Positions 26,519-43,588 of a stretch of 52,838 nt of DNA are shown piece after piece (position 1 is the stretch's first letter; each line of letters starts with the position of its first letter). The notes under the pieces were generated by a model. It saw nothing but the letters and a program-made list of their open reading frames with translations. It ran no database searches and had not been told where the DNA came from. The stretch comes from a virus. Its lineage: Duplodnaviria; Caudoviricetes. The DNA is taken from positions 1 through 52,838 of IMG/VR virus record IMGVR_UViG_3300009149_000044. The stretch is one strand, 5' to 3'. Made by a program: the position numbers and the translations under genes.

Positions 26519-29056
26519 CTATATCTCGTCAGAGAAGAATTCGCCCACCTTGTCCATCTCATACCAGTTGCGTCCGAGCTCTACCTCTACGGAAAGCGGC
26601 ACCGTTACCCAAGAATAGGAGGGGCGCAACATCTCGATCACTATCTCCTCAACTGCGGTGTCAACCAGCTGATCAGGCACGTAGAACCCCATCTCGTCGT
26701 GGACGCTGAGGACGGGCTGCAAGTATATCTTGCCTTCGTTGCACGCCTTCTCTGACAAACGAGCGGTCCCATCATTCAGCACGTCTGAAGCCGTCCCTTG
26801 GATGGGGGTATTGTAGATCATAGTGTCGTCAAGAGGTGCGTGCCTCCGGCGTCCGCTCAGGCACGTGACGTAGCCCTTTTGGGCGTAGCTAACGAGCGTC
26901 GCGTTCTGCCATTTCTTCACGCCCGAGTATTCATCCCAGAACTCCTCATAGAGCGGCTGTAGTTTACGGACCGGAACCTCATGTCGGGCTTGGCTCGATA
27001 GCGCTGCGGCAACCGATTCGAGCACCGATCCATAGAAGATCGGGAAGGTCCAGGCGTTCTTCATCATCGTGCGCATCTTGCGGATGTCTTTGTCGAACGC
27101 TTTGTAGATAAACGGGAAGAGCTTGGCTACCTCCTCGGTCCAATACATGTGGATGTCGAAGCGCTCCCGGAGCGCCTTGAGGAGCGCCGGGTCCTGGCTA
27201 ACCTCCACCATCATCCGATACTCGATCTGGCCATAGTCCGCGCACACAAGAACGTGACCAGGCGGTGCGCAGATCATCCCACGAATCTCTCGATGCTCGC
27301 GCTTAGGGAAGTTCTGAACGTTCGGCTTATCGCTGCTCAAGCGTCCAGTCACCGTAAAGCACTGATTATAGGATGTATGAAGGCGACCGTCAGGGAAAAG
27401 GACTTTGCCGCCTTCCCGGAGCGGAGCTACGTAGGTCGAACGAAGCTTCCCTACAGATCGGTATTTCAGTATCTTCTCGCAGACCTCCCCACCGATCTCC
27501 TTGAGAACCGCCTTGTTCCCGGTGTAGCCTCCCAACTTCTTCCTGCCTGCGTCACAGTGCATCACGTCACGCAGCAACACCACAACCGAGTCGTCAGTGA
27601 CTTTGAAAGGACCGAATTGCTTCTCGTAAGCCTGAACCTCAGGCTGCTCCTTCAGTGCCGCCTTGATCTCCTTCGTCTGCTCGCCCAAGCTCTTGTAAAA
27701 GAACTCGACCCTCTCTTGGTCGACGTAGAGGCCGCGCTGCTGGGCCAAGACGAGCGCAGGCACGCGGCGTAGGTGCTCCTGGTAAACGCCAACCAAGTCG
27801 TTGCGCTCCAAGCGCTCGCGCAGACGCTGGGCCAGCTTGTATTCATACTTGACGTCGAGCGCGTTATACGAGAGGACCTGCGCGAGCCGTGTGCTCGCCA
27901 GCTTCGTCCTGTCCACATCACTGATAGCTTTGAGATGAAAGCCGAAATTCTCCAAGCAGCAGAAATCCAAGCTCATCCCACCCTTGCGCTCGTCTAGGAT
28001 GTAGGCCATCAGCATCGTGTCTGCCCACTGCCCTTTTCGAAGCAGATCATTCCCGAGATAGTGGGCAGTCCACTCGCTCTCGAATGCGAGGTTATGAGCG
28101 ATCTTGACACCTTCATAGTGAGATAAGAACTGACGGACGAGATGATGCACCTCCATCCGCTCTGCATCCGACCAAACCGACTCCGGATGATCTAGCGGAA
28201 AGGCCACTATCCGCTTATCGGTCCCGAATGCCAGCGTCAACAGTAATGAATCGCTGGCGTAGGGTTTGAGGTTACGTGTCTCGAAGTCAAAAGCGACTTC
28301 GGGCTCCTCCATCATCTCGTCAAGGAACGCTTTGACTTGTGAGATATCGTTATCTACGCAGACGACCCCGGTGTGCGCGTCGGCTGGGTCAACGACTTCC
28401 GGTGTTTCATCTGCTAAATCTGGGGAGAAGACGCGGCCAAGGTCGCGGGCGAAGACCTGCTCCAGTTTATTGTCTCTGCTGTGCAGGAGCGCGGCCGGAT
28501 GCATAACCGGGAAGAACCAGCAGACGTGGCCTGCGATGTTGACAGGGACCTTACGGCCACGCCAGACCGTAATGCTGTTCTCGTCCAGTAGCCAGTTAAG
28601 CGGGAAGTTCCCGGCCCCAACAATCGCAACAGGTTGGGTCTCAGCGATATCTGTCATCACCGACACACGGCAAGCCTCTATCTCTTCGCGCTTTGGGTCT
28701 CGGTTGTTTGGCGGGCGGCAGCGGATGCAGTTATTCCAGCGCACCTCTGCCTCCCAGCCTTCAGGGATGTATTTACGCAGCTTCCGACCCGACTCTCCGA
28801 CGAACTGCCGCCCCTTAGCATCTTCTGTTTTCCCTGGTGCCTCACCCAGGATATACACAAGCGGGTCGTGGCTGCCGGACGGCGGCATCTGAGGCGAATT
28901 CACGTCTGCGTCTTTCAGTGGGCAGGCATCGCATTCGTGGTCCCAATAGTAAGCGTAAGGGAACGCTTCTGGCGCCTTCGCCCCCGCCTGCTTGCGGCTG
29001 CTCCCGGAGCGCTGCCGGTTGACTTTCTTCTCCGTGCGCGTCTCGAAGAATCCCAT
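26519..29056 (-). CDS. polA: family A DNA polymerase with N-terminal family-4 uracil-DNA glycosylase domain and 3'-5' exonuclease
   Basis: UDG: CDACPL, GEAPG, CRPPNNRDP, HPAALL; exonuclease: FDFET, YNALD; polymerase: TGRLSS, ADYGQIEYR, VHDE. Confidence 0.92.
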   Translation of the reverse strand: MGFFETRTEKKVNRQRSGSSRKQAGAKAPEAFPYAYYWDHECDACPLKDADVNSPQMPPSGSHDPLVYILGEAPGKTEDAKGRQFVGESGRKLRKYIPEGWEAEVRWNNCIRCRPPNNRDPKREEIEACRVSVMTDIAETQPVAIVGAGNFPLNWLLDENSITVWRGRKVPVNIAGHVCWFFPVMHPAALLHSRDNKLEQVFARDLGRVFSPDLADETPEVVDPADAHTGVVCVDNDISQVKAFLDEMMEEPEVAFDFETRNLKPYASDSLLLTLAFGTDKRIVAFPLDHPESVWSDAERMEVHHLVRQFLSHYEGVKIAHNLAFESEWTAHYLGNDLLRKGQWADTMLMAYILDERKGGMSLDFCCLENFGFHLKAISDVDRTKLASTRLAQVLSYNALDVKYEYKLAQRLRERLERNDLVGVYQEHLRRVPALVLAQQRGLYVDQERVEFFYKSLGEQTKEIKAALKEQPEVQAYEKQFGPFKVTDDSVVVLLRDVMHCDAGRKKLGGYTGNKAVLKEIGGEVCEKILKYRSVGKLRSTYVAPLREGGKVLFPDGRLHTSYNQCFTVTGRLSSDKPNVQNFPKREHREIRGMICAPPGHVLVCADYGQIEYRMMVEVSQDPALLKALRERFDIHMYWTEEVAKLFPFIYKAFDKDIRKMRTMMKNAWTFPIFYGSVLESVAAALSSQARHEVPVRKLQPLYEEFWDEYSGVKKWQNATLVSYAQKGYVTCLSGRRRHAPLDDTMIYNTPIQGTASDVLNDGTARLSEKACNEGKIYLQPVLSVHDEMGFYVPDQLVDTAVEEIVIEMLRPSYSWVTVPLSVEVELGRNWYEMDKVGEFFSDEI

Positions 29057-30113: not shown

Positions 30114-30288
30114 TTGATCCTTTCGGTTGGTAATCGCGCAGTTGGCCCTCGGTCACGAATTTCTCAAGGCTCAGATCGTGACCGTCGTTGATGAGCGCGT
30201 GGTAGGAAAGCAGCCGGTTCCGCACGCCCTCGATGTTCAGTGCTTCACTATGCTGCGGGGTGGTATTGACTGCGAAGAAGATCTTCAT
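30070..30288 (-). CDS. small protein resembling the N-terminal beta1-beta2 segment of phage DpdA/TGT-like barrels
   Basis: MKIFFA...NRLLSY; ATGA overlap with the dpdA stop. Confidence 0.5.
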   Translation of the reverse strand: MKIFFAVNTTPQHSEALNIEGVRNRLLSYHALINDGHDLSLEKFVTEGQLRDYQPKGSIDATQGDARPSGDV

Positions 30289-31112
30289 GTGAAGAAGCCC
30301 CCGTTCTTGGCGACACGGAACGGCCGCGGCTTATACGTCTTCTCGACGTGGAGGAAGAACCGACAGGCCAGCCGCTGTCGCTCATAAGGTGAGGTTCGTA
30401 GAACATCGAGGCTGAACCCCTCATGCTCGAAGTAGCGGAGAATATACTCTTGCTGCTGTGCACCGATCAGGTCGATATGCCGAGATCGCTTCAGCTCAGT
30501 CAACGGCGGGCGGTCACTGACTGCCACGCACTCCGGTGACCGCGTGAAATCATATCCATCCTTGCCCCAGGCCGGGACCAGCGCGTAACCATACCCGCCA
30601 TATCTGACCCACGACATCGAATCAACCGAATACCACGGGTATCGAAACAGCAGCGATACTGTCGTCACTCCGAACCCGTGCGTCTTGATGCAAGGGTAAC
30701 CGTCATTCTCTTTGCACAGGAACGTGAAAACGTCGTCCAGCCAAACTGCACGCTGGGCTGGCGTCTTGTCGTTTGCTGGTGAGATCCCGATGTAGTCGTG
30801 GCCGGTAGCAATCATCTTCTCCAGCCAAGACAGCCGCTCCCCTTGGTGGTAAACGGGCATCGGCTTGAGGCCTCTTGCCTCCATATGCAGCAGGTTTTTC
30901 CAACCTTCCGCTGCCGCCAACTCGACCTGATCAGGCGAAGGCTTCTGGAAGGGCTTACCTGGGATCACGTCCAGGTTCACGTAGGCGAAGAGGAGGTGCT
31001 CACGGGCTTTGACATATTCGCAGTAAGCGTCTATGTCGATCTGGCCTCCCCGGTTCCACGCGGAGAACGCACCGCTGTCGAGGATGAGGTCAACTTTGCG
31101 CTGCATTGTCAA
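30285..31112 (-). CDS. dpdA: DpdA-like 7-deazaguanine DNA transglycosylase (TGT fold)
   Basis: LILDSGAFS, NLDVIP, MPVYH, THGFG and YSVDSMSW motifs; embedded in the que gene cluster. Confidence 0.8.
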   Translation of the reverse strand: MTMQRKVDLILDSGAFSAWNRGGQIDIDAYCEYVKAREHLLFAYVNLDVIPGKPFQKPSPDQVELAAAEGWKNLLHMEARGLKPMPVYHQGERLSWLEKMIATGHDYIGISPANDKTPAQRAVWLDDVFTFLCKENDGYPCIKTHGFGVTTVSLLFRYPWYSVDSMSWVRYGGYGYALVPAWGKDGYDFTRSPECVAVSDRPPLTELKRSRHIDLIGAQQQEYILRYFEHEGFSLDVLRTSPYERQRLACRFFLHVEKTYKPRPFRVAKNGGFFT

Positions 31113-31554
31113 AGCCTTCCTCAGTGCAGTAGAACGCCTGCGGTGTGATCGAAATACCGCCCCTGGGGAAGAACTCGCCCCGCACCTCCATCATCTGCGG
31201 ATCCAGAAGCGCAACAAGGTCGCTCAAGATCCGATGAATGCAGGCTTCGTGGAACTCACCGTGGTTCCGGAAGCCCATCAGGTAGAGCTTCAGCGACTTG
31301 CTCTCGACACACCAGTTATGTGGGAGGTAGTCAATGAAGATCTTGGCGAAGTCGGGCTGGCCCGTTACCGGGCACAAACTCGTGAACTCAGGCGCTTCAA
31401 TATGGATGACCATATTGCTCGTAGGGACACCATGTCCTTCTGTAGACTTATGCGGGTTCTTGAAGCGCTCGAGAACCTGACTGTCAGGGCGGTCGAATTG
31501 ATACAGCTTACGGTTGGAGGCGCTCTGCCCGAGTGCCTTGAGGTCATTTTCCAT
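31090..31554 (-). CDS. queF: preQ0 reductase (unimodular QueF)
   Basis: EFTSLCPVTGQPDFA, QueF motif ESKSLKLYL, FHE, RGGI. Confidence 0.92.
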   Translation of the reverse strand: MENDLKALGQSASNRKLYQFDRPDSQVLERFKNPHKSTEGHGVPTSNMVIHIEAPEFTSLCPVTGQPDFAKIFIDYLPHNWCVESKSLKLYLMGFRNHGEFHEACIHRILSDLVALLDPQMMEVRGEFFPRGGISITPQAFYCTEEGFDNAAQS

Positions 31555-31564
31555 CGGGGCTCCT

Positions 31565-32464
31565 TCAGCGGGTCAGTGAGAGAAACTCCTCTCGGGTGCG
31601 GGGATCATCACGCATGTCGCCCAACAGGGCTGACGTCGTGGTGGACGTTCCGGCAGTCCGGACACCGCGGCTCTCCATACAAAGATGCCGGCACTTCAGC
31701 ACAACACCGACGCCGACTGGAGTGAGCTCCTCGAAAAGCGTCGTGGCTATCTGCGTTGTCAGGCGCTCCTGAACTTGGAGGCGCCGTGCGAATACGTCGA
31801 CAAGGCGGCTCAGCTTGGACAAGCCAACGATCCTCCCTTGTGGGATATACCCAATATGGGCCACGCCGAAGAAAGGCGCACAATGGTGCTCACAATGGCT
31901 CCAAACGGGTATATCACGCTGGACTATCATCTGGTCGTAGCCCTCACCGCCGTCCTCGAAGACCTTGAAGATTTCCCGCGGGTCTTGGCTGTAACCGCTG
32001 GTCCAGAATTGCCACGCCTTCAAGAAGCGCGCTGGTGTCTCGAGCAAACCTTCCCGCCGGGGGTCTTCCCCAACGAACTCCAGCAGCCGAACAGGGATGT
32101 CTTCTGCTGAGCCATCACGGTCTGAGCGCTCCCAAGGGAAGCTCACCCAGGGATCACCCGGTTGCTTCTCAACCAGCGCGTAGAACGGGCGCTCGGTGTT
32201 GAAGGATGTATCCAGCCAGAAATCGCGAGTCCGGCCGGAATCGATGATGTCGTCGATGATAAAGCTGGCGGTGGCGGCGTCATCGACTACACGACACCCT
32301 GGGCCCAGGTGGTGGGCCACAGCATACGCTGCAGGAATCCCACCCCTGGGCACCCCGAACAGATTGCAGCTGGTGAACGGCATTATCTGATCAGCCCGGA
32401 TGCGCTGTGCAACGCTCTGCGCCAGCTGGTCAACATCAGCCAACGTCAGGTGACGCATCGTCAT
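31565..32464 (-). CDS. folE: phosphoribosyltransferase-GTP cyclohydrolase I fusion
   Basis: N-terminus GVPRGG, IIDDIIDSGRT, WVSFPWE (Gpt-like PRTase); C-terminus REGLLETPAR, CEHH, GLSKLSR, RRLQVQERLT, HLCMESRG. Confidence 0.92.
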   Translation of the reverse strand: MTMRHLTLADVDQLAQSVAQRIRADQIMPFTSCNLFGVPRGGIPAAYAVAHHLGPGCRVVDDAATASFIIDDIIDSGRTRDFWLDTSFNTERPFYALVEKQPGDPWVSFPWERSDRDGSAEDIPVRLLEFVGEDPRREGLLETPARFLKAWQFWTSGYSQDPREIFKVFEDGGEGYDQMIVQRDIPVWSHCEHHCAPFFGVAHIGYIPQGRIVGLSKLSRLVDVFARRLQVQERLTTQIATTLFEELTPVGVGVVLKCRHLCMESRGVRTAGTSTTTSALLGDMRDDPRTREEFLSLTR

Positions 32465-33228
32465 CAGTTACCTCCCTCTTCGCCAGCTGCGGCTGCGGCT
32501 TCAGCTTCGACCGGCTTCCGGGCCAGATCGTTCACGCGGGTGATCAACGGATCCTTGACGCCAGCTTCACTGAAGCCCCGCGCACGGATCAGGCATGCGT
32601 GGCACTGGCCGCATGGCGGGAAGACACCTTGGTAGCAGGTGTGGGAAAATGCGAGACCCGCCATACAGCCAGGCAGGTCCTGTGCCACCCGCACCGTCTG
32701 CGCTTTGGTGAGTTTGAGCAGTGGCGCTACGATGTCGATCGCCTCAACAGTGTCACCAAGACCGAGGTTAAGCGCCTTCTGCATCTGGCGCAGGAACATA
32801 TCGCGGCAGTCCGGATAACCACCGAAGTCGGCCTGGCTAACACCGATCACCACATAGTGGTAACCACGGGACGCTGCGCGGTTCGCTGCGATTGACAAGA
32901 ACAGCGCGTTCCTGCCGAGCACGAATGTTGGTTCCGGTTCGCGCTCCTTCGGGAGGTGATGATAGTTCTCGTAAACGGGAACCGCCTCGGCGCTATTTAC
33001 CAGTGGACTGGTGCCTTCGAATACATTACCCAGCTGAATGACCTCACGCTCGACACCGACTGCCTCTGCGATCTGCTGTCCGCAAGCCAGTTCGATCGCG
33101 TGTCGCTGCCCGTAGTCAAATGACAGCGCCAGGATCTTCTCTTTGGGGAAGCGCTCCAGCGCCCAGTAGAGGCACGTGGTCGAATCCTGACCACCCGAAA
33201 AGATTACGACTGCTCCATCTTCATCCAT
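32464..33228 (-). CDS. queC: 7-cyano-7-deazaguanine synthase
   Basis: FSGGQDSTT, FDYGQRH, YPDCR, TCY...CGQCHAC..R. Confidence 0.95.
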   Translation of the reverse strand: MDEDGAVVIFSGGQDSTTCLYWALERFPKEKILALSFDYGQRHAIELACGQQIAEAVGVEREVIQLGNVFEGTSPLVNSAEAVPVYENYHHLPKEREPEPTFVLGRNALFLSIAANRAASRGYHYVVIGVSQADFGGYPDCRDMFLRQMQKALNLGLGDTVEAIDIVAPLLKLTKAQTVRVAQDLPGCMAGLAFSHTCYQGVFPPCGQCHACLIRARGFSEAGVKDPLITRVNDLARKPVEAEAAAAAGEEGGN

Positions 33229-33265
33229 TCCAGATCTCCTTGGTTGCAACAGACTGAAAAGCATA

Positions 33266-33313
33266 AGGGTCAGGGGCACGTCCTTTTGCCTCCCGACCCT
33301 TAAACTATATCAC
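33266..33313 (-). promoter_or_regulatory. GTGATATAGTT motif followed immediately by a leader hairpin upstream of queC
   Basis: Minus strand: GTGATATAGTTT-AAGGGTCGGGAGGCA-AAAGGACG-TGCCCCTGACCCTT. Confidence 0.55.
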
Positions 33314-33327
33314 GGCACTCATCGACC

Positions 33328-33849
33328 TCAGCCTTTGAGGCGCTTGATGACCTCCAGGGTTGTTCTCGTGTCGTAGAACATTGTCTCGAACGTGCTGGTG
33401 GCCAGGCTGAAACCCTCACCGAGCAGCGTATCGAAGACCTTCTGCTTGTCCCAGTCTTCGTGCAGCACCATCAGCTCCTTGAGGCGGACGGTGGAACCTT
33501 TCTTTTTCTTCGGCGCCGTCTTGGCAGTCTTCTTCGGTTCGACCTTGGGCTCGTCGGGGACTGTTGCAGCCTCCGCGGGTGCCTCCGGCTCGACATCCGG
33601 TTCCGCCGCTGCGGCTTTGGTTTTCGGCTTGCCGGCCTTCGGGAAGTCGAGAATATCGACCTTATCCTCCAGCGCCTGGACCGCATCATTGCTCCACTGC
33701 TGCGCAGCTTCGCTCAGTGCCGCCCACTCCTCTTCAGGCAGCTCGTTCACCGCTCTGAGAACCTTCGCCAAGAAGACTTGCTTCTTCTCGCCGACCTTCT
33801 TCTTCACACCCGTCTTCGCCAGGATTTCTTCAGCTACCGTCGCCATCAT
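33328..33849 (-). CDS. hypothetical Lys/Glu/Ala-rich protein within the que cluster
   Basis: GAGGAG RBS; start/stop overlap with queD. Confidence 0.6.
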   Translation of the reverse strand: MMATVAEEILAKTGVKKKVGEKKQVFLAKVLRAVNELPEEEWAALSEAAQQWSNDAVQALEDKVDILDFPKAGKPKTKAAAAEPDVEPEAPAEAATVPDEPKVEPKKTAKTAPKKKKGSTVRLKELMVLHEDWDKQKVFDTLLGEGFSLATSTFETMFYDTRTTLEVIKRLKG

Positions 33850-34274
33850 TCATCTCCTCTTTTCTCAGCGAAGCTCGTCGGGGTCTCCCAGACCCTCACA
33901 CTAGCGAGCTTCATACCATCGAACGTGCAGCCGTCCTGCATACGTGCAAGAAGCTGCGAAAAGAACAATTCGGCCATCGCCTCAGCGGTTGGATTCGTGT
34001 CCATCTGGATCACCCGCTGTCCCGCTGCAACAAGGAGGGGCACAAGCGGGTCGCGCCTATAAAGGACTGTAACGTGATCCCACATCTCCACCTCATCTCG
34101 CAGCGCTGCTTTCAGGTCACCAAAATCGACGAGCATCGCCTCCGGTCCCCACGGAACTTTGCCGCTGACTGTCGCTTCGATCTTGTAGCGGTGGCCGTGC
34201 AGGAATTGACACTTCCCTGGGTAATCCAACAACCTGTGCGCTGCGTCAAATTCGATCATCGTCGTGACGTTCAT
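33846..34274 (-). CDS. queD: 6-carboxytetrahydropterin synthase
   Basis: FDAAHRL..YPGKCQFLHGH, VDFGDLK, NPTAE, VWET. Confidence 0.93.
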   Translation of the reverse strand: MNVTTMIEFDAAHRLLDYPGKCQFLHGHRYKIEATVSGKVPWGPEAMLVDFGDLKAALRDEVEMWDHVTVLYRRDPLVPLLVAAGQRVIQMDTNPTAEAMAELFFSQLLARMQDGCTFDGMKLASVRVWETPTSFAEKRGDE

Positions 34275-34816
34275 CTTCTCTCCCCGTGCACCCAATTGAG
34301 AACCTTCCCGACCATATCCACCTCTGCTGGGTCTACACCGACCAGACGGCAAAGGCGTTCATTGTTGGTCTCACGTGTGCCGTTCGCGTGCCTAAAGTGC
34401 GGCTGGGGCTTCGTCGCTTCCAGCCCTGCGTTGATCCCGAGCGCCTCCAGCAGCGCTGTGATCTCTGTCGGCGCCGAGTCCAGGAGCAGTCGGGTCTCCA
34501 ACTCATCTATATCGTCGGTGAGTTCGATCTGCTGTTCGACCTCGGTGTGCACCTCTGCGCGCCGGGTCCGCTGGTTCGCCAGCTCGTAGAAATGATTCCG
34601 CAGACACGTCTTGAACAACGACATGAAATGCTTTGGTTCAACGACAGTCGAATACCGGTCCGTGCACTTCAGGAAGTAGAAATAGGCGTCTTGGAGCAGA
34701 TCATCGAACTCGTGCTCCAGCCCCAGCTTCCAGACGTTGCGGCTGATGTAGTTGACTGCCCAACCTTCGATCTCGCCCTTGAACTGTGGTCTGAATTTCA
34801 GCTTAGCGCGATTCAT
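34271..34816 (-). CDS. sigma-70 region-2-like transcription factor
   Basis: EFDDLLQDAYFYFLKCTDRY...HFMSLFKTCLRNHFYEL resembles sigma region 2. Confidence 0.6.
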   Translation of the reverse strand: MNRAKLKFRPQFKGEIEGWAVNYISRNVWKLGLEHEFDDLLQDAYFYFLKCTDRYSTVVEPKHFMSLFKTCLRNHFYELANQRTRRAEVHTEVEQQIELTDDIDELETRLLLDSAPTEITALLEALGINAGLEATKPQPHFRHANGTRETNNERLCRLVGVDPAEVDMVGKVLNWVHGERR

Positions 34817-35961: not shown

Positions 35962-36204
35962 CTACCTATCAATCATCCGTGCAGCGACCAGAACCTCCGC
36001 CCAGTCTGTCTCGGCACCATCAGCGAGCACCGCCGCCTGCCTGCACTGGGTGATGCGCGTAAGCGAGCTTTCAGCGGCAAGCACCGAACTGCGCAGGACA
36101 GTGCCGTCCGCTTCCTCTACTTGCAGCCTGAGGAACCCGTCCATCGCCCGAACCTCAACTTTCCGGCCTGTCGCGCTTCGCAAGATTACAGTATCCATCT
36201 TCAT
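35962..36204 (-). CDS. hypothetical protein
   Basis: AAAGGA RBS before ATG 36204. Confidence 0.45.
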   Translation of the reverse strand: MKMDTVILRSATGRKVEVRAMDGFLRLQVEEADGTVLRSSVLAAESSLTRITQCRQAAVLADGAETDWAEVLVAARMIDR

Positions 36205-36262
36205 CAGACTTTGTCCTTTCTGGCCCGGGCAGGTCCTCCCCACCCGGGCCGTGTTGTGGGTT

Positions 36263-36502
36263 TCACTCGACGTCGAAGTATTCCATTACGACCCGCAGGA
36301 GCCGGTCGTAATCGCCGTCGGTTGCCTTCGTCCGGAACTCCACCCAACGCTCGTCCGTCCACCCCGCCTCCTTTGCTGCGCGCTTGCAAGCGCCCAGGAT
36401 GTAGAAGGCGTTCCCGACATTGCCAATCAGTTTGACTGCCGGCCTCAGCGGGCGCTGCTTCATCTCCATCGCCTGGATCTTTTCACGTTCTTCAGCATTC
36501 AT
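36263..36502 (-). CDS. conserved-looking small phage protein
   Basis: VKLIGNVGNAFYILG...AGW...GDYD.LL; GGAG RBS. Confidence 0.65.
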   Translation of the reverse strand: MNAEEREKIQAMEMKQRPLRPAVKLIGNVGNAFYILGACKRAAKEAGWTDERWVEFRTKATDGDYDRLLRVVMEYFDVE

Positions 36503-36547
36503 CTTCGGTCTCCTCCGGCGTTTAGTGCGGGCGCCCGTGAGGGTGTA

Positions 36548-36766
36548 TTACTTCTTCGCCGCGTCCGCCACCAGGTATCGCAGAATGCGGCCGCCCTTGT
36601 CCACGCTCTCAATGATGCTTTGCAGCGACCGCGATTCGCTGTCCGTGATCCCCAGTCGACTATCCACAAACGCCAAATCCTCCTTGAGCGCGTAGAGGTC
36701 GTCAAGCAGTTCGTCAAGCATTCGTGTTTTGTCCGCCTCGGTCATCATTCCTTCAATGCGTTTCAT
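36548..36766 (-). CDS. hypothetical protein, first gene after the early promoter
   Basis: RBS and ATG supplied by repeat copy 2. Confidence 0.6.
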   Translation of the reverse strand: MKRIEGMMTEADKTRMLDELLDDLYALKEDLAFVDSRLGITDSESRSLQSIIESVDKGGRILRYLVADAAKK

Positions 36767-36898
36767 CTTCGGTCTCCTTTCTGTTCGGTGCCGGTAGGAC
36801 CTTCCTACCCGACTGTTAGTATTATACGATACTTATCACCAAAAGTCAAGTAAAAACTTCGAAATTCGTGGAAATAAATTGTAAAAGATTGTAACGGC
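36764..36898 (-). repeat. ~135-bp direct repeat copy 2 (promoter cassette)
   Basis: TTGACT(36849-36844)-N17-TATAAT(36826-36821); matches 19020-19155. Confidence 0.92.
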
Positions 36899-37038
36899 AG
36901 GAAACCGAGAAGCACCAATCCGGCGATTGAGTGGCGTTTACGGCGGTGAGCTGGCGATCCAGCCCGCCACGGAATATGCAAATATCGACCCCACGACCAG
37001 GTAAAATAATATCGCCCCGATGACTTTCGCAGCAGTTT

Positions 37039-37254
37039 TCACAGGTCTTCTGGCAGCCTCCGGCGTATGATCTTGGATGAACCTGGGTTGCGCACGCCCA
37101 TCACCCGCTGGGTCTGCGCGGCTGTCATCGTGGCCAGCCGAGCCCAGTGGTTACGGCAGACGGGCTTGCCGAGATAAAACAGTTCGATGTCAGTGCTCTT
37201 GCACCCCGGATAACCGCACGTGGGTTGGTCAGACATAATTCGGTCTCCTTTCAC
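37039..37254 (-). CDS. small Cys/His protein
   Basis: CGYPGC...CRNH; AAAGGAG RBS suggests the start is the internal ATG (MSDQP). Confidence 0.5.
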   Translation of the reverse strand: MKGDRIMSDQPTCGYPGCKSTDIELFYLGKPVCRNHWARLATMTAAQTQRVMGVRNPGSSKIIRRRLPEDL

Positions 37255-37258
37255 TTAG

Positions 37259-39743: not shown

Positions 39744-41158
39744 TCGTCGTCTCCATCGCCGTGCGCCTGCTCAGTCGAGAGCGTCTTCCAATACTTTGGC
39801 ATCATCCGGACGGAGTCCAGACAGAACTGCCCAACCCCATAGTTCTGCGAAAGCAGGACGGTAAAGTGGTCTCGATCATTGCGTCCTTTCGCCACGAACA
39901 ACCGGGCTAGACCCAACTCGCGCTCCTGCTGGGTCTGATTGAATGTCAAGAGGACGTCGGCCGTCATCCCTTTCGAGAAATCTTCGCTGGTGTGCTCGGC
40001 GGTAATCACCTTCGTGCCGAATCCAGCGCGGTTGCTCTGGGTAACGGCTGCTATACCTATATTGCGCTTCACACCGAGACCACGAAGTCCCTTGAAGATC
40101 GCCGACGTCGCGCCGCGGATGTTATTCGGATCAACAGTCATCAGGTCGGGATAGTCCACCAGCAGCAGGTCGGGTATGAAGCCTTTTGACATCTCTAGCG
40201 TATCGAGGTAGCCCTCAATCTGGCGTAACGTCAGATCTCCCGTTGGGAACTCCTTGATCACCAGCTTGCCTTTGACCTTGCTGAGCTTCTCTGTCAGCAC
40301 GGCGCGGATGTCGGTGTCGTGGAAGCTGGGCCGGTCAGGCATCTCGACTGACTCCATCGAAACGAAGCGCCCCAGTTCGTCCTCCTCAAAAGCCTGCCTT
40401 ACGAAGTCTTCCTTGCGCTTGGACACCGAAAACAGCGATTGAGTATAACGTTGCGCCAGTATCTGCTCGCTCACCTCTAAGGTGATGTGAACAACCTTCT
40501 GGTGTGTCAAGAGAGCCCATTTCGCCAGGTTGATCAACCACCAGGTCTTGCCAGAACCCATCAAGCCCATAAACAGGTGGAGCTCTTTACGCGCCGGTCC
40601 GAGGTCGCGATCGTCTAACTGACGCACGCCCGTCATAAACACCTCTCGGCTGTCTGGATCCAGGAAGCGCAGCATCCGTTTGACATCTGACAGCTCTAGA
40701 CCCGGGTCGAAGATGTCAAAGTTCGATTTCATGGCTTCCTGCAGGACGCGCTCGGCTTCATCGAGGTCCTCTGTGGCGGGCTCCTTGAGTAGGTCTACTG
40801 CACGAATGATAGCCGATCTCAGCCGCTGCTGCCGTATAAACTCCGTGGCTCGCGACAGAATGTATTCGCCATTTATCTCGCCGCGAATCGCCTCCATGGA
40901 TTCGTAAATCCTGAGGTAGATCTCCGCGGCGTCGCTGCGCTTCTGCTGCAACGTCTCGAGGATATCGAGCGTATGCTCGCCAGGCGCGTGGCCGAACCTC
41001 TGCCTGAACGCTACAGCCTCCGTGGCAAAGTCTCGGTAGAACGCATCGTAGCAGTTCGTAGGGACAAGATTGAAAATCACCTGGCCGGTTTCGCTGTCGA
41101 AGCAAAGGAGGGCCAATAGCGCCTCTTGAATGGCTGAGGTCAGTCGCTGTTCGTTCAT
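39740..41158 (-). CDS. replicative DnaB/gp41-like helicase
   Basis: GLMGSGKT, ITLE, LVDYPDL, TQSNRAG, KGRN. Confidence 0.88.
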   Translation of the reverse strand: MNEQRLTSAIQEALLALLCFDSETGQVIFNLVPTNCYDAFYRDFATEAVAFRQRFGHAPGEHTLDILETLQQKRSDAAEIYLRIYESMEAIRGEINGEYILSRATEFIRQQRLRSAIIRAVDLLKEPATEDLDEAERVLQEAMKSNFDIFDPGLELSDVKRMLRFLDPDSREVFMTGVRQLDDRDLGPARKELHLFMGLMGSGKTWWLINLAKWALLTHQKVVHITLEVSEQILAQRYTQSLFSVSKRKEDFVRQAFEEDELGRFVSMESVEMPDRPSFHDTDIRAVLTEKLSKVKGKLVIKEFPTGDLTLRQIEGYLDTLEMSKGFIPDLLLVDYPDLMTVDPNNIRGATSAIFKGLRGLGVKRNIGIAAVTQSNRAGFGTKVITAEHTSEDFSKGMTADVLLTFNQTQQERELGLARLFVAKGRNDRDHFTVLLSQNYGVGQFCLDSVRMMPKYWKTLSTEQAHGDGDDE

Positions 41159-41580
41159 AGTTGCCCTTTGATGATGACATTCAGTAGCCCGCTCTCGCGA
41201 TAGCCCGGAAAAGCCAGATCGATGACTTGTGATGTGCGTGTCAAGGACGTCGCCAGCGCACGCGGCGAGACTGGAACACCGCGCTCCACCATATCGGTAA
41301 TCAGCAGATCGCCTACCCGCAGATAGAGCTTATAGCGCTCTGCTCGGCGCTGCACCTGAAAATACTGGTTGATAAACGCATCCAGGTGCTCTGCGCCAGC
41401 CTTGAAGGTTGAAAACCACGACTGCTTCTTGAGCAGCGAATATGGCGGGGACGTAATACCCCGGCGCTTGAGGGCTTCTTCCATCCAGCGGTAGACCACA
41501 ACGAGATCGTCAGGCTTGCGGTAGTCCTCAAGCCGGTGGTCTACAAGCTCACGCAGTTTTAACAGATCGGCGCGTGACAT
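41155..41580 (-). CDS. hypothetical protein upstream of the helicase
   Basis: ATGA overlap with the helicase; start uncertain (41580 or 41616). Confidence 0.55.
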   Translation of the reverse strand: MSRADLLKLRELVDHRLEDYRKPDDLVVVYRWMEEALKRRGITSPPYSLLKKQSWFSTFKAGAEHLDAFINQYFQVQRRAERYKLYLRVGDLLITDMVERGVPVSPRALATSLTRTSQVIDLAFPGYRESGLLNVIIKGQL

Positions 41581-41590
41581 CCGCGTCAGA

Positions 41591-41803
41591 TCAGGATAGG
41601 TAAAGTCGCTTCCCATGCTGTTTAGCCCAGATAGCAATCTTCGCTCGGTCATATCGGATCGTATCGCGGCCCTCGCCCTTGATGAGAACATAAGGGAGCC
41701 GCTCATGCTTACGCCAGAGCGCGATGGTTTGCTTGGAGCGCCTGAACATACGGGCTACGTCGCCCTCATTCAGAAGCTCGATAGTCGTAAATTGCTGGTC
41801 CAT
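41591..41803 (-). CDS. excisionase/MerR-like HTH DNA-binding protein
   Basis: LLNEGDVARMFRRSKQTIALWRK...LPY...IRY...W; GGAGG RBS. Confidence 0.8.
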   Translation of the reverse strand: MDQQFTTIELLNEGDVARMFRRSKQTIALWRKHERLPYVLIKGEGRDTIRYDRAKIAIWAKQHGKRLYLS

Positions 41804-41822
41804 ACATAAACCTCCAGTTTCA

Positions 41823-41919
41823 CATAACTATATCACGCGGCCTACCATTACAGTATAACACAAACAAGGCCGGCAGTCAAGCATAATTTTCAACCTCTTA
41901 GCGACATGATATAGTTATG
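41823..41919. promoter_or_regulatory. divergent control region: leftward sigma70 promoter bracketed by a 13-bp inverted repeat of the GATATAGTT motif
   Basis: CATAACTATATCA (41823-41835) / TGATATAGTTATG (41907-41919); TTGACT(41880-41875)-N17-TATACT(41857-41852) on the minus strand. Confidence 0.75.
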
Positions 41920-41924
41920 CAAAC

Positions 41925-42260
41925 CAGTCTCAAGAAACCTTTCGCGCTCCTACAACGCATATGACGCACGAAGACGAAAGCGCGAAGGACAGGGGATGCG
42001 GTGTTTACCGAGTGCACCGTGAGACCCACCAGGCAAGGCACCTGGAGCGCGACCTACAATACCAATCCGGGCTACGTCCTACCCTGACGACCCGGTCCCC
42101 GATCAGTGCTTCAGTTCGAGCCTGGTAGCTGACCGATAGATTATCTGCTGTTGGTGTTCAACAGCGCTATCGGCTCAGTTCAATGCCACGATCGAGGCTA
42201 TTAGGTTAAGAAGACCTGGTTAGCCCAGATCGGGGATAATGGGACTCGGTATTGAGTCAA
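41925..42260 (+). ncRNA. candidate large structured RNA (leader of queE or independent ncRNA), family unknown
   Basis: No ORF of 60 aa or more; at least nine nested helices identified by eye, several with G-U pairs valid only on the + strand; promoter-like motif immediately upstream. Confidence 0.6.
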
Positions 42261-42271
42261 GGAGAAGACCA

Positions 42272-42916
42272 GTGGCTTTAGACGTAGAAGACGGCGCAGA
42301 TCAGCTATTCAGCGTGAACGAGATCTTCGTTTCGATCCAAGGGGAAGGCCCTAGTGCCGGTATGCCGGCAATCTTCATCAGACTGGCAGGCTGCAACCTG
42401 AACTGCCCGTTCTGCGACACCAAACATGATGTCAGGATGACCCTGACAACCCAGGAGATCGTCAAAGCAGTCAAGTGCTTCAAGAACCAGCCTCAGCTGT
42501 TGGTCATTACGGGAGGTGAGCCTTTCCTGCAGCCGATCAACCTGCTGGTGGATGCGCTGGTCGACAACTACCAGATCGAGATCGAAACGAACGGCACCAA
42601 TTTCGGCTTGTGGGGACGCGAGTGGAATCGGGAGGCGCGCATCAATGTTTCGCCCAAAACTGAGACGCTCGCCCCACCGATCTACCATCTGGCGACCGCC
42701 TTCAAGTATATCATCTGCACCAGGACCAAACTGAGCATGGATGGCCTTCCGCATGGCTTGGCGCGGCCGCCTGCGGGGCTGCCGATTTTCCTGCAGCCGA
42801 TGGACGAGAAAGATCCAGTCAAGAACCAAGCGAACGGTGCTCTCTGCGCAACGCTCTGCATCCAGCACGGGTATTACTTGTCATTACAGTTGCACAAGAT
42901 AGTGAATATCAAGTAG
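42272..42916 (+). CDS. queE: 7-carboxy-7-deazaguanine synthase (radical SAM)
   Basis: EIFVSIQGEG, FIRLAGCNLNCPFCDT, ITGGEP, IETNGT, VSPK, SLQLHK; AAGGAG RBS favours GTG 42272. Confidence 0.95.
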   Translation: MALDVEDGADQLFSVNEIFVSIQGEGPSAGMPAIFIRLAGCNLNCPFCDTKHDVRMTLTTQEIVKAVKCFKNQPQLLVITGGEPFLQPINLLVDALVDNYQIEIETNGTNFGLWGREWNREARINVSPKTETLAPPIYHLATAFKYIICTRTKLSMDGLPHGLARPPAGLPIFLQPMDEKDPVKNQANGALCATLCIQHGYYLSLQLHKIVNIK

Positions 42917-42985
42917 CTGGCTGAGAGCGCCAAGCAGCTGGCAGCGCTGCAACGCTAAGCGGGCGGGTAATGTATCCATACCAGC

Positions 42986-43588
42986 TTACTCCGCCGCCTT
43001 GTCACGCACAAACATCATGGCGTTGTCGACGACCCAGACGCAGCCTCGCGCACGGCAGTCTGCTTGGAACTTCGACGTAGCACCAGCGAGCAGCCGAAAG
43101 CCCCGACTCTCAAAGCGGGATATCCAGTAGTCTTTTGGCTGCTCGTTGACATGCCCAATACCGGTGTTGGGCACCAGCGCAGCTGGCGGGGCGGCAGTGA
43201 AGAAGACCAGCCCGTGCGCGTAGCAATGCGCGCAACAGAAGCGAACCAGATCATCAGCGTAGATGCTAGGGAGGTGCTCGGCAACCTCGATGCACGAGAC
43301 CAGATCTGCAGCGTCAAAGCTGACCAACGTCTTATTGCCTTTGAGCACCTGGAACAGGTCCGCCTTGAGCACCGACATCCCCTCAGGGATACGCGCAAAC
43401 GCAGACCTGCTGCCTTCAATACCGAGGGTGGGAATCCCTTTGTCATGAAACCAAGAGGTCAGGTAGCATGCTCCACAGCCGACGTCGATGACACTCTCGA
43501 ATCGGAAGTGCTCGAAGAGCCATTGGGCGAAATACCCGTAAATGACTCGATACTTCTCGCGGTTGGCGTAGAAGGTATCGTCATACAT
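42986..43588 (-). CDS. class I SAM-dependent methyltransferase
   Basis: VIDVGCG, SCIEVAEHL, GHVNEQP..YW; type usually seen in glycan-biosynthesis clusters; start probably ATG 43588. Confidence 0.85.
   Translation of the reverse strand: MYDDTFYANREKYRVIYGYFAQWLFEHFRFESVIDVGCGACYLTSWFHDKGIPTLGIEGSRSAFARIPEGMSVLKADLFQVLKGNKTLVSFDAADLVSCIEVAEHLPSIYADDLVRFCCAHCYAHGLVFFTAAPPAALVPNTGIGHVNEQPKDYWISRFESRGFRLLAGATSKFQADCRARGCVWVVDNAMMFVRDKAAE

What the first reader, a model, noticed from the sequence alone, without database searches (positions are those of the whole stretch)
41925..42290. Unassigned ~330-nt highly structured RNA in front of queE, with switch-like alternative pairings
Seen: the largest ORF-free gap in a tightly packed genome, folding into two domains. 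Domain 1: GTCTCA 41927/TGAGAC 42020 enclosing TTCGCGCT 41941/AGCGCGAA 41979 and GCGGTGT 41998/GCACCGT 42014; then CCAGG 42029/CCTGG 42041. Domain 2: CAATACC 42057/GGTATTG 42248 enclosing CCGGG 42067/CCCGG 42091 and TCCCCGATC 42096/GATCGGGGA 42228, which encloses a long arm (AGCTGACCGATAG 42127/CTATCGGCTCAGTT 42167 capped by GCTGTTG/CAACAGC) and GGCTA..AGGT 42196/ACCT..TAGCC. G-U pairs favour the + strand. Mutually exclusive pairings exist near the RBS: a local hairpin GACTC 42243/GAGTC 42254, and CTACGTC 42072 with GACGTAG 42281 inside the queE start. It lacks tRNA, tmRNA and RNase P hallmarks. Inference: a new riboswitch-like leader gating the isolated queE step of DNA modification, or an independent phage ncRNA (decoy, guide or scaffold). 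Together with the deazaguanine genes, this is my best candidate for an undescribed system.
Basis: partly seen in the sequence, partly recalled or inferred. Interest (0 to 1): 0.85.

Follow-up and report, generated by a model that had tools for sequence, protein, structure and literature searches.

The report
Conserved folded element upstream of queE
The non-coding stretch before this phage's queE gene holds one copy of a small, undescribed folded RNA-like motif that recurs in a few other mobile elements linked to Planctomycetota, so it is real and conserved but is not a queE-specific switch.

Summary
Only its 3' part ("domain 2") holds up. Positions 42064-42243 are one copy of a 130-180-nt element also found in five other distinct sequences. 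These are a Kolteria novifilia prophage-like region, a Planctomycetaceae MAG, a second viral contig, a metagenomic phage early region and a 1.5-kb rolling-circle replicon.

All copies share a hairpin (CNA-CGUC-CUACCCU-GACG-A inside a 5-bp basal stem) and the strand UAAWGGG. Five have an 8-9-bp helix joining the two around an unalignable 72-123-nt insert. The basal stem and this helix covary: 7 of 12 countable pairs change on both sides, and no shuffle of 500 reached this.

Nothing in Rfam matches any copy. "Domain 1" (41927-42052) folds no better than shuffles and has no relatives.

Only this copy lies near queE or any other deazaguanine gene, so a queE or preQ riboswitch is not supported. My best reading (about 0.4) is a co-transcribed pseudoknot-type leader module that binds a shared host factor or ligand and sets translation of the next gene. 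A ribozyme, a single-stranded-DNA signal and a trans-acting RNA remain open. Transcription is not shown.

The parts
41591..41803 (-). HTH_17 (excisionase/AlpA-like) gene, first gene of the leftward early/replication operon
   Evidence: Pfam HTH_17 E 2.6e-5, below the curated cut-off (24.8 vs 27 bits). PHROG 66 'excisionase and transcriptional regulator' E 7.2e-6.
41852..41880 (-). sigma-70-like promoter for the HTH_17 operon (TTGACT-17-TATACT, TG before the -10)
   Evidence: Consensus scan: 10 of 12 matches. 4 sites were found in 41550-43100 against 0.8 +/- 1.1 in shuffles. It is a pattern match only.
41887..41915 (+). sigma-70-like promoter for the rightward transcript (TTTTCA-17-TATAGT, TG before the -10); the inferred start is near 41922
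   Evidence: Consensus scan: 9 of 12 matches. The start site is inferred, not shown.
41823..41919 (.). perfect 13-bp inverted repeat, arms 41823-41835 and 41907-41919; candidate operator pair
   Evidence: the repeat finder pair I2, 100% complementary. The right arm covers the -10 of the + promoter-like site.
41927..42052 (+).
   Evidence: The stems are present, but z is -1.02 and 29 of 200 shuffles fold as well. No related sequence was found in any search.
42064..42243 (+). conserved module, from AAUC to UAAUGGG (180 nt)
   Evidence: Family of six distinct sequences. Model R1 scores the window's hairpin part at 65.8 bits.
42067..42095 (+). core hairpin. Basal stem CCGGG/CCCGG (42067-71/42091-95), internal loop CUA/A, upper stem CGUC/GACG (42075-78/42086-89), loop CUACCCU (42079-85)
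   Evidence: The 25-nt core is identical in 5 other loci. The basal stem has changes on both sides in 4 of 5 pairs; the upper stem is invariant.
42096..42104 (+). 5' strand of helix P2 (UCCCCGAUC)
   Evidence: It pairs with 42228-42236. An 8-9-bp helix sits at the same anchored place in 5 of 5 full members, each with a different sequence.
   Evidence: Inserts of 72-123 nt cannot be aligned between members. The stems exist here but are specific to this copy.
42228..42236 (+). 3' strand of helix P2 (GAUCGGGGA)
42237..42243 (+). conserved strand J3, UAAUGGG (UAAWGGG in the family)
   Evidence: Present in 6 of 6 sequences directly, or one base, after P2. It was not part of the patterns that found L011, L012, L013, L014 or L019.
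42243..42258 (+). 3' hairpin GACUC-GGUAUU-GAGUC. Its loop GGUAUUG can instead pair with CAAUACC at 42057
   Evidence: A hairpin of unrelated sequence follows J3 in 4 of 6 members; I read this by eye from the flanks printed.
42259..42264 (+). Shine-Dalgarno AAGGAG, 7 nt before the GTG start
   Evidence: read from the sequence
42272..42916 (+). queE (7-carboxy-7-deazaguanine synthase-like radical SAM protein, 214 aa), the only rightward gene here
   Evidence: Pfam Radical_SAM E 9.8e-11. Relatives are named QueE by their sources. The best relative outside the window's own protein is 50% identical.

Best explanation
Positions 42064-42243 are one copy of an undescribed structured module carried by mobile elements that are linked to Planctomycetota.

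Shown. (1) The module has an invariant hairpin core, CNA-CGUC-CUACCCU-GACG-A, inside a covarying 5-bp basal stem. (2) A covarying 8-9-bp helix (P2) closes a variable 72-123-nt domain. (3) The conserved strand UAAWGGG follows, and P2 brings it next to the base of the hairpin.

Inferred. (1) In this phage the module is transcribed from the promoter-like site at 41887-41915 as the 3' half of a roughly 350-nt queE leader. (2) The G-run of UAAWGGG pairs with the CCC of the hairpin loop, giving a compact H-type pseudoknot core. (3) That core binds a component common to these hosts, either a host factor or a small ligand. (4) Binding decides between the core fold and copy-specific alternative pairings that cover the translation start of the next gene. 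Here the alternatives are CUACGUC 42072 with GACGUAG 42281 inside queE, and CAAUACC 42057 with GGUAUUG 42248. In the Kolteria copy a CUGCCUCC in the insert pairs with the GGAGGCAG ribosome-binding site.

The module is a portable leader element, not a sensor dedicated to queE or deazaguanine synthesis.
For: Family. A 21-mer of the hairpin occurs in 2 of 185,579 species genomes, both Planctomycetota. The 25-mer occurs in 3 metagenome contigs, 2 of which carry the same sequence. A 17-mer finds one true viral relative, L019.

Structure. P2 and UAAWGGG were not in the search patterns, yet both are present in L011, L012, L013 and L019. An anchored helix of 8-9 bp is found in 5 of 5 full members. Against 20,000 random anchor pairs, P is 0.0019-0.0056 per sequence. 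All 40 cells of the 8 shared P2 positions are Watson-Crick, and every position has at least two pair types (sequences).

Formal count on A2. 12 pairs were counted: 97.1% of cells pair and 7 pairs change on both sides, a value no shuffle of 500 reached. Slid partners pair in 20-48% of cells. Unconstrained folds recover P2 in the window (5 of 9 bp), L011 and L013, but not in L012.

Place. UAAWGGG ends 28, 28 and 16 nt before the start codon of a co-directional gene in the window, L012 and L013. In L012's minimum-energy fold the insert pairs with the ribosome-binding site in place of P2. A promoter-like site lies about 140 nt upstream here.

Other. No protein is shared within 5 kb of the copies, which points to a host factor, a ligand or a self-contained activity. 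No Rfam family matches any copy.
Against: Transcription is not shown for any copy.

In L019 the element lies at the end of a co-directional unit and faces a convergent gene. The degenerate L027 copy has the same arrangement. A leader role therefore cannot hold everywhere.

L014 is a 1.5-kb rolling-circle replicon in which a DNA-level role is at least as natural.

The + and - strands do not differ consistently in folding energy. The z-scores of the other members are weak: -1.1, -1.3, +0.2, -2.8 and -2.05 on the + strand.

There are only six distinct sequences, and all were found through the hairpin motif itself. Its invariance is therefore partly by construction. The proposed loop-J3 pairing and the upper stem never vary, so neither can be tested.

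The alternative pairings differ from copy to copy and could be chance.
Confidence: 0.4

Rival explanations
1. Single-stranded-DNA signal. The folded + strand serves as a priming or lagging-strand origin, in the manner of the sso/ssi signals of rolling-circle plasmids and small phages, or as a folded recombination site. Host replication or recombination enzymes would recognise it.
For: One member, L014, is a 1530-nt circular replicon with a REP_ORF2-G2P rolling-circle initiator. The element fills most of its short non-coding region. Conservation of short motifs inside a variable, covarying fold across unrelated replicons is what recognition by a host enzyme would produce. In the window the element sits beside the replication module: a DnaB-like helicase and an SNF2 helicase. 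Folding energies do not favour one strand consistently. That sso/ssi signals have this design is recalled, not tested.
Against: Most copies are in tailed-phage or prophage settings that have no known need for such a signal. In 3 loci the element ends 16-28 nt before a start codon. The orientation agrees with at least one flanking gene in 6 of 7 loci, which a transcript explains more simply. No rolling-circle initiator lies near the other copies.
Confidence: 0.15
2. Trans-acting non-coding RNA. It would be cut out of the flanking transcript and act as a decoy, anti-defence RNA or regulator that binds a conserved host protein or RNA.
For: Gene context is not uniform. No partner protein is encoded nearby. 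There is one copy per genome. The element is carried by unrelated mobile elements. Copies at the end of transcription units (L019, L027) fit a 3'-derived RNA.
Against: No shared promoter-like sequence is seen in the 50 nt upstream of the copies; I read this by eye. No intrinsic terminator follows the window's copy. No target is known. No RNA data exist.
Confidence: 0.15
3. Self-cleaving ribozyme of a new class, or an RNA processing site, that cuts the polycistronic or leader transcript near the sharp 5' boundary at AAUC.
For: The design is a block of invariant nucleotides with covarying stems and a large optional peripheral domain. The element lies in phage and prophage intergenic regions without a constant neighbouring gene. 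Conservation starts abruptly at AAUC in all copies. In one unrelated sequencing-run contig the match begins exactly there. That known ribozyme classes look and live like this is recalled.
Against: No match to any ribozyme model in Rfam at E<=10. My attempts to map hammerhead and HDV-like cores by eye failed: there is no room for stem I, and most copies have no C in the joining strand. New ribozyme classes are rare.
Confidence: 0.12
4. One reading: a riboswitch that senses a deazaguanine intermediate (preQ0, preQ1, CDG, CPH4) or SAM/GTP and gates queE.
For: The window's copy ends 28 nt before queE. The phage has a full FolE-QueD-QueE-QueC-QueF-DpdA set, with queE alone on the other strand under its own promoter-like site. 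A hairpin followed by an A-rich strand and then a short pairing run is the layout of class I preQ1 riboswitches; this is recalled.
Against: No preQ1 or other riboswitch model matches. No other family member is next to a queuosine or deazaguanine gene: the neighbours are DUF3102, unknown phage proteins and a rolling-circle Rep. L019's record has no QueC or TGT.
Confidence: 0.07
5. No function at the nucleic-acid level: a chance fold, or a small protein gene (55-aa ORF 41961-42128, or 47-aa ORF 41898-42041 on the - strand).
For: Domain 1 folds no better than shuffles. ORFs happen to cross the motif in several loci.
Against: The 25-nt core is identical in unrelated contexts. ORFs crossing it use different frames...RPTLTT... 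in the window, L012 and L019, and ...ATSYPDDP... in L011 and L014. Similarity stops at the motif. The helices covary. Neither small ORF has a Pfam match.
Confidence: 0.03

Closest known systems
Class I preQ1 riboswitch (Rfam PreQ1; H-type pseudoknot before que genes)
   Same: A small hairpin whose loop could pair with a short run that follows an A-rich strand. It lies directly before a queuosine-pathway gene in this one phage, close to the ribosome-binding site. The architecture is recalled.
   Different: No covariance-model match. The core sequence is different. A 72-123-nt domain is inserted between the hairpin and the tail. The other five members are not near que genes.
Single-strand origins / initiation signals of rolling-circle plasmids and small phages (ssoA-type, G4-type ssi)
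   Same: A folded element of about 150-200 nt with an orientation. It has a few conserved short motifs in an otherwise variable, paired structure, and unrelated replicons of one host range share it. One member is on a rolling-circle replicon. The features of sso/ssi are recalled.
   Different: The recalled sso motifs were not looked for. Most copies are in tailed phages or prophages and abut start codons. No activity was tested.
Phage leader RNAs that act on host machinery in cis (HK022 put RNAs; lambdoid nut sites)
   Same: Structured RNA downstream of an early promoter and upstream of an operon, next to a small HTH regulator gene (window, L012). It would be conserved because it contacts a host component rather than a phage protein. 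This is recalled.
   Different: There is no sequence or fold likeness. The window's transcript holds a single gene before convergent genes. L019 and L027 have no downstream operon.
Small self-cleaving ribozymes common in phage DNA (hammerhead, HDV-like, twister, pistol, hatchet)
   Same: An invariant core with covarying stems and a peripheral domain of free length. It is intergenic, in prophages and phages, with no constant neighbour.
   Different: No Rfam model matches any copy. The core motifs could not be mapped. Cleavage is untested.

Membership tests
Any described RNA family (Rfam 15, 4227 models) | Covariance-model score at or above the family's gathering score, or at least a weak match overlapping the element | tested here: not met
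   Window at gathering score: 0 matches. 41750-42350 at E<=10: 0. L011 and L012 at E<=1: 0. L013, L014 and L019 at E<=5: 9 weak matches, none overlapping the element.
preQ1 riboswitches (classes I-III) | Match to the family models | tested here: not met
preQ1 riboswitches (classes I-III) | Recurrent placement before queuosine/preQ synthesis or transport genes | tested here: not met
   1 of 6 distinct sequences is near a que gene. L019's record has no QueC or TGT.
preQ1 riboswitches (classes I-III) | Binding of preQ1 or preQ0 | not testable with these tools
   Needs in-line probing or ITC.
tRNA / tmRNA / tRNA-like | Cloverleaf or tmRNA detected by ARAGORN | tested here: not met
   0 genes in the window. 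The T-loop-like CAG-UUCGAGC-CUG at 42114-42126 lies in the variable insert and is not shared by other members.
Self-cleaving ribozymes (hammerhead, HDV-like, twister, twister-sister, pistol, hatchet) | Match to the family models / conserved catalytic core | tested here: not met
   Mapping by eye from recalled consensus also failed.
Self-cleaving ribozymes (new class) | Site-specific self-cleavage of the transcript | not testable with these tools
   Needs in vitro transcription.
sso/ssi single-strand origins | Carried on replicons with a single-stranded intermediate, co-oriented with replication | tested here: inconclusive
   1 of 6 sequences (L014) is on a rolling-circle replicon and co-oriented with rep. 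The others are tailed-phage or prophage contexts.
sso/ssi single-strand origins | Supports priming on single-stranded DNA | not testable with these tools
   Needs replication assays.
Attachment-site core (attP/attB) | The core is repeated at both ends of an integrated element or present in empty host sites | tested here: not met
   The 25-mer with up to 3 mismatches occurs once in G001 and once in G002. It was found in 2 of 401 and 1 of 251 sampled Planctomycetota genomes.
CRISPR-repeat mimic (solitary repeat) | Near-identity to repeats arrayed in host genomes | tested here: not met
   No genome among the 401 and 251 sampled has more than one match.
The family defined here (AAUC-hairpin / UAAWGGG element) | Hairpin CNA-CGUC-CUACCCU-GACG-A within a 5-bp basal stem preceded by AAU | tested here: met
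   Window 42064-42095; 65.8 bits with model R1.
The family defined here (AAUC-hairpin / UAAWGGG element) | Helix of 8-9 bp starting right after the hairpin and ending 0-1 nt before UAAWGGG | tested here: met
   Window 42096-42104 / 42228-42236, then UAAUGGG at 42237-42243.

The most novel reading that the evidence does not exclude
The element is a new functional RNA class that diverse mobile elements of Planctomycetota use to tap one host input. It would be either a new self-cleaving ribozyme, or a riboswitch or protein-binding pseudoknot for a ligand or factor not yet linked to RNA control. It would be portable between a tailed phage, prophages and a 1.5-kb rolling-circle replicon.
Probability: 0.2. 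Interest if true: 0.85.

Novelty: new variant of a known kind. Interest (0 to 1): 0.6.

Why it matters
Almost nothing is known about regulatory RNAs of Planctomycetota or of their viruses. This element has covariation support and matches no described family. Otherwise unrelated mobile elements share it, which suggests that they all exploit the same host component. One copy sits in a cultured strain, Kolteria novifilia Pan216, so transcription, cleavage, ligand binding and reporter tests are practical.

For this phage, the result removes the idea of a dedicated switch on the queE step of DNA deazaguanine modification. It leaves a generic leader module plus a promoter/operator pair as the likely controls.

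Tried and rejected
**Searches for relatives that found nothing**
- GenBank phages, 501-nt query.
- GenBank phages and PLSDB plasmids, 41-nt core at E<=1.
- IMG/VR with the exact 25-mer.
- QueE in IMG/VR: only relatives of 35-46% identity.
- The helicase in IMG/VR: none.

**Hits judged to be chance**
- L010: an 18-mer inside a 1262-aa ORF.
- L018/G196: 3 mismatches, in a region that reads as coding (I did not check its ORFs); the reversed control pattern also gave 2 hits.
- L020: sequence that translates as coding, with the outer stem unpaired.
- L021: found with a pattern I mis-specified by one N.
- L022-L024: the stems do not pair.
- L029 and L030: 25-26 bits, coding-like, with no J3 and no anchored helix.
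- L005: 20.8 bits.
- L027, a second site in Kolteria (28 bits, 6-bp helix, GGAAUAGGAGG in place of J3), is kept only as a possible degenerate copy.

**Sequencing runs**
- No RNA holder was listed. The runs laid were DNA contigs only, so nothing can be said on expression.

**Alignments**
- MAFFT alignment A1 misplaced the 3' part.
- A2 aligns only the ends. P2 was therefore analysed in a script, and only 3 of its pairs could be counted formally.

**Ideas considered and dropped**
- Hammerhead, HDV-like, twister, K-turn and tetraloop-receptor likenesses: compared by eye from recalled consensus; none fits.
- Attachment-site core, dif-like site and CRISPR-repeat mimic: dropped on copy number.
- A promoter formed by TGACGA and GATAAT: the spacing exceeds 100 nt and the -10-like hexamer is not conserved.
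- A closing helix P1 like the window's CAAUACC/GGUAUUG: seen also in L011's fold, but I could not find it in L012, L013 or L019.
- A partner protein encoded nearby: none.
- Host assignment from helicase relatives: they carry no informative names.

**Tools and papers**
- Papers: the 13-nt core string occurs in 0 papers of the held library.
- A word search gave 4 papers. Of these I read one passage of PMC10690425. It concerns gp32-associated motifs.
- Its supplementary tables, which list over ten thousand candidate viral RNA motifs, were not seen and might include this one.
Full report
**The observation**

All ten pairs of strings are at the stated coordinates.

- The gap is real. 41810-42238 (429 nt) is the longest stretch of the window not covered by any ORF of 60 aa or more; the next is 185 nt.
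- All six frames are interrupted. The longest stop-to-stop frames are 72 aa (+) and 51 aa (-).
- The + strand of 41925-42290 folds at -139.1 kcal/mol, z -3.96, with 0 of 100 shuffles as good. The - strand gives z -1.66, with 7 of 100 as good.

Two controls temper this. Among 700 windows of the same length across the contig (both strands), 14 have a more negative GC-corrected energy. When the parts are folded apart, "domain 1" (41922-42060) has z -1.02, and 29 of 200 shuffles fold as well. The 206-nt "domain 2" has z -4.17 on + and -3.57 on -.

Rfam gives nothing at gathering score in the window, nor at E<=10 in 41750-42350. ARAGORN finds no tRNA or tmRNA.

**Setting**

The window is an IMG/VR virus record estimated 53% complete, and nearly all its genes lie on the - strand.

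- To the left of the gap starts a leftward operon: an HTH_17 (excisionase/AlpA-like) gene at 41591-41803, a 183-aa ORF, a DnaB-like helicase and an SNF2 helicase.
- To the right lies queE. Its start is best placed at GTG 42272, 7 nt after AAGGAG. It has a radical SAM domain and is followed by convergent tail-module genes.
- Further left are the other deazaguanine genes, all on the - strand: DpdA/TGT-like, QueF-like, FolE, QueC and QueD.
- A consensus scan finds back-to-back promoter-like sites: TTGACT-17-TATACT leftward (41880-41852) and TTTTCA-17-TATAGT rightward (41887-41915). That is 4 sites against 0.8 +/- 1.1 in shuffles.
- A perfect 13-bp inverted repeat (41823-41835 / 41907-41919) covers the rightward -10.

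A rightward transcript would thus begin near 41922 and carry about 350 nt before queE. This is inferred, because no RNA run holds the sequence.

**Finding relatives**

The phage is poorly sampled.

- QueE has no relative above 50% identity among 5.8 billion proteins, apart from the window's own protein.
- The helicase tops out near 53%.
- Neither GenBank phages nor IMG/VR hold a close relative.

The lead came from laying DNA contigs of four runs on 41000-43300. The same phage occurs almost unchanged in three soil runs. In addition, two unrelated short contigs match only 42064-42106 (43 nt, 2 differences) and 42070-42107 (38 nt, 4 differences), with unlike flanks.

I used that island as a pattern.

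- A 21-mer occurs in 2 of 185,579 species genomes. Both are Planctomycetota: the Kolteria novifilia Pan216 chromosome (L012) and a Planctomycetaceae MAG (L011).
- The 25-mer occurs in 3 metagenome contigs. L013 and L015 carry the same sequence; L014 is distinct.
- A 17-mer finds a divergent copy in viral contig L019.

There is one copy in the window and one in each of the two genomes. In samples of Planctomycetota genomes the element is rare.

- Pattern with up to 3 mismatches: 2 of 401 genomes. One of these lies in a region that reads as coding and I take it as chance; the reversed control pattern also hit twice.
- Pattern in the family of the MAG: 1 of 251.
- Hairpin covariance model in the class sample: 4 of 151. 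The two new ones lack the rest of the element.
- These samples overlap.

**Anatomy and covariation**

In the window, L011, L012, L013 and L019 the order is the same.

1. AAU.
2. A 5-bp basal stem.
3. An internal loop CNA / A.
4. The stem CGUC/GACG with the loop CUACCCU.
5. With no spacer, the 5' strand of a helix I call P2.
6. An insert of 123, 72, 106, 115 or 104 nt that cannot be aligned.
7. The 3' strand of P2.
8. After 0-1 nt, UAAUGGG (UAAAGGG in L019).

From AAUC to the end of that strand the element measures 130-180 nt. In window coordinates:

| Part | Coordinates |
|---|---|
| Basal stem | 42067-71 / 42091-95 |
| Upper stem | 42075-78 / 42086-89 |
| Loop | 42079-85 |
| P2 | 42096-42104 / 42228-42236 |
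| UAAUGGG | 42237-42243 |
| 3' hairpin | 42243-42258 |

P2 has a different sequence in every member:

| Member | 5' strand / 3' strand |
|---|---|
| Window | (U)CCCCGAUC / GAUCGGGG(A) |
| L011 | CCCCGGCAC / GUGCCGGGG |
| L012 | GGGGUGAC / GUCACCCC |
| L013 | CCCCGAAG / CUUCGGGG |
| L019 | GCCUCCAC / GUGGAGGC |

All 40 cells of the eight shared positions are Watson-Crick, and every position shows at least two pair types. P2 and UAAWGGG were not part of the patterns that found these loci, so they are independent confirmations.

Against 20,000 random anchor pairs at the same spacing in each locus, a helix this long has P 0.0019-0.0056 per sequence.

The basal stem is CCGGG/CCCGG in four members, CGCUG/CAGCG in L019 and UAGGG/CCCGA (one mismatch) in L014.

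On alignment A2 the tool counts 12 pairs (5 basal, 4 upper, and the 3 of P2 that MAFFT aligned).

- 97.1% of cells pair, against 81.4% in shuffles.
- 7 pairs change on both sides, a value no shuffle of 500 reached.
- Slid partners pair in only 20-48% of cells (for the hairpin alone).

The upper stem and loop never vary, so they say nothing. Because every member was found through that motif, its invariance is partly by construction.

Unconstrained folding recovers P2 in the window (5 of 9 bp), L011 and L013, but not in L012.

L014 is a variant. It has the same 25-nt hairpin, enclosed by CUGCGGCGG/CCGCCGUAG, with AUAAAGGGG 81 nt downstream.

A second, degenerate site in Kolteria (L027) scores 28 bits. 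It has a 6-bp helix at the right place and GGAAUAGGAGG in place of UAAWGGG.

No Rfam family matches any copy.

**What the contexts say**

The copies sit in very different elements.

- The window and L019 are viral contigs, the window with tail genes and L019 with genes that look structural.
- L012 is a prophage-like region: HTH_17, then the element, then DUF3102, then an S49 protease.
- L013/L015 look like a phage early region.
- L011 is a remnant between transposase fragments.
- L014 is a 1530-nt circular contig (123-nt terminal repeat) with a REP_ORF2-G2P rolling-circle initiator.
- L027 follows a truncated tyrosine integrase and an IS3 transposase.

An all-against-all BLASTP covered 375 frames of 60 aa or more within 5 kb of the element in seven loci. 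It gives three cross-locus hits, all of them translations of the element itself. No partner protein therefore travels with it.

No other copy is near a queuosine or deazaguanine gene. L019's 29.4-kb record has neither QueC nor TGT.

ORFs that cross the motif read it in different frames...RPTLTT... in the window, L012 and L019, and ...ATSYPDDP... in L011 and L014. Selection is therefore on the nucleic acid.

UAAWGGG ends 28, 28 and 16 nt before the start of a co-directional gene in the window, L012 and L013. In L019 and L027 a convergent gene follows.

**How it most likely works**

Shown: a conserved, covarying fold whose two conserved blocks are brought together by P2.

Inferred: I take it to be part of a transcript. 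Three observations point that way.

- It is co-oriented with at least one neighbouring gene in 6 of 7 loci.
- It abuts start codons in three loci.
- A promoter-like site lies upstream here.

The G-run of UAAWGGG can pair with the loop CCC (4 bp with CCCU where W is A). This would make an H-type pseudoknot with UAA alongside the stem. L027 keeps ACCCU and an AGG, but not the 5' half of the loop, which fits this pairing better than one with CCUA. This is weak evidence.

A core of this kind is a typical binding site for a small ligand or a protein. Because no phage protein is shared, the partner should be common to the hosts.

Each copy has its own possible competitor for the start region:

- In the window, CUACGUC 42072 with GACGUAG 42281 (bases +10 to +16 of queE), and CAAUACC 42057 with GGUAUUG 42248.
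- In L012, CUGCCUCC in the insert pairs with GGAGGCAG at the ribosome-binding site in the minimum-energy fold.
- In L013, a CUACCCA copy of the loop lies 3 nt before the AUG.

I therefore commit to a portable leader module that sets translation of the next gene, with confidence of about 0.4. I am about 0.9 confident that the conserved structured element itself is real.

The + and - strands do not differ consistently in stability, so RNA versus single-stranded DNA is open.

**Comparison and novelty**

The element works most like pseudoknot-type leader RNAs. It is a member of none of the families tested.

- It fails the model match for every Rfam family.
- It fails the gene-association test for preQ1 riboswitches.
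- Its copy number rules out an attachment core or a repeat mimic.

In the held library, the core string occurs in no paper. A word search gave four papers. I read one passage of the 2023 survey of viral RNA motifs, PMC10690425, which concerns other motifs. Its supplementary lists were not available and may contain this element.

I rate the element a new family of a known general kind.

**Limits**

- There are six distinct sequences plus two partial contig matches.
- All were ascertained through the hairpin.
- There are no expression data.
- Domain 1 and the arms inside the insert are specific to this phage and unsupported.

Noticed in passing
window 41823-41835 and 41907-41919: Perfect 13-bp inverted repeat CATAACTATATCA / TGATATAGTTATG. 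The right arm covers the -10 of the rightward promoter-like site, and the left arm lies in the leader of the HTH_17 gene. It is a likely operator pair for the divergent promoters.
   Followed up: partly
window 30285-34352 and 42272-42916: Complete preQ1-type 7-deazaguanine set: DpdA/TGT-like 30285-31112, QueF-like 31090-31554, FolE 31565-32464, QueC 32464-33279, QueD/PTPS 33846-34352. Only QueE lies apart and on the other strand.
   Followed up: partly
window 26519-29056 (-): Family A DNA polymerase with a 3'-5' exonuclease domain and an N-terminal uracil-DNA-glycosylase-superfamily domain in one 845-aa ORF.
   Followed up: no
L014 (whole contig, 1653 nt with a 123-nt terminal repeat): A circular replicon of about 1530 nt with a REP_ORF2-G2P rolling-circle initiator and a 179-aa ORF. 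It carries the 25-nt hairpin and AUAAAGGGG in its short non-coding region. A separate hairpin of about 13 bp lies further towards rep and could be the nick site; I read this by eye.
   Followed up: partly
L027 1501-1680 (G001, about 640 kb from the L012 copy): Possible degenerate second copy of the element in Kolteria novifilia. It lies directly after a truncated tyrosine-integrase fragment and an IS3 transposase, and faces a convergent ORF and an RHS-repeat gene.
   Followed up: partly
window 41147-41181: A 35-nt island at the junction of the 183-aa ORF and the helicase start matches one unrelated contig in each of three soil runs, with 5 differences and the same foreign flanks. It may be another short conserved element.
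   Followed up: no
window as a whole; L011, L012: The only two species genomes that hold the hairpin 21-mer are Planctomycetota, so the host of this phage is probably a planctomycete. Near-identical copies of the phage occur at low depth in three soil runs of three other studies, with one difference, C>T at 42189.
   Followed up: partly
window 36854-37258: Second largest ORF-free stretch (405 nt at a 75-aa threshold). It lies after the only other long rightward ORF (36050-36853, no Pfam match) and before a convergent gene.
   Followed up: no
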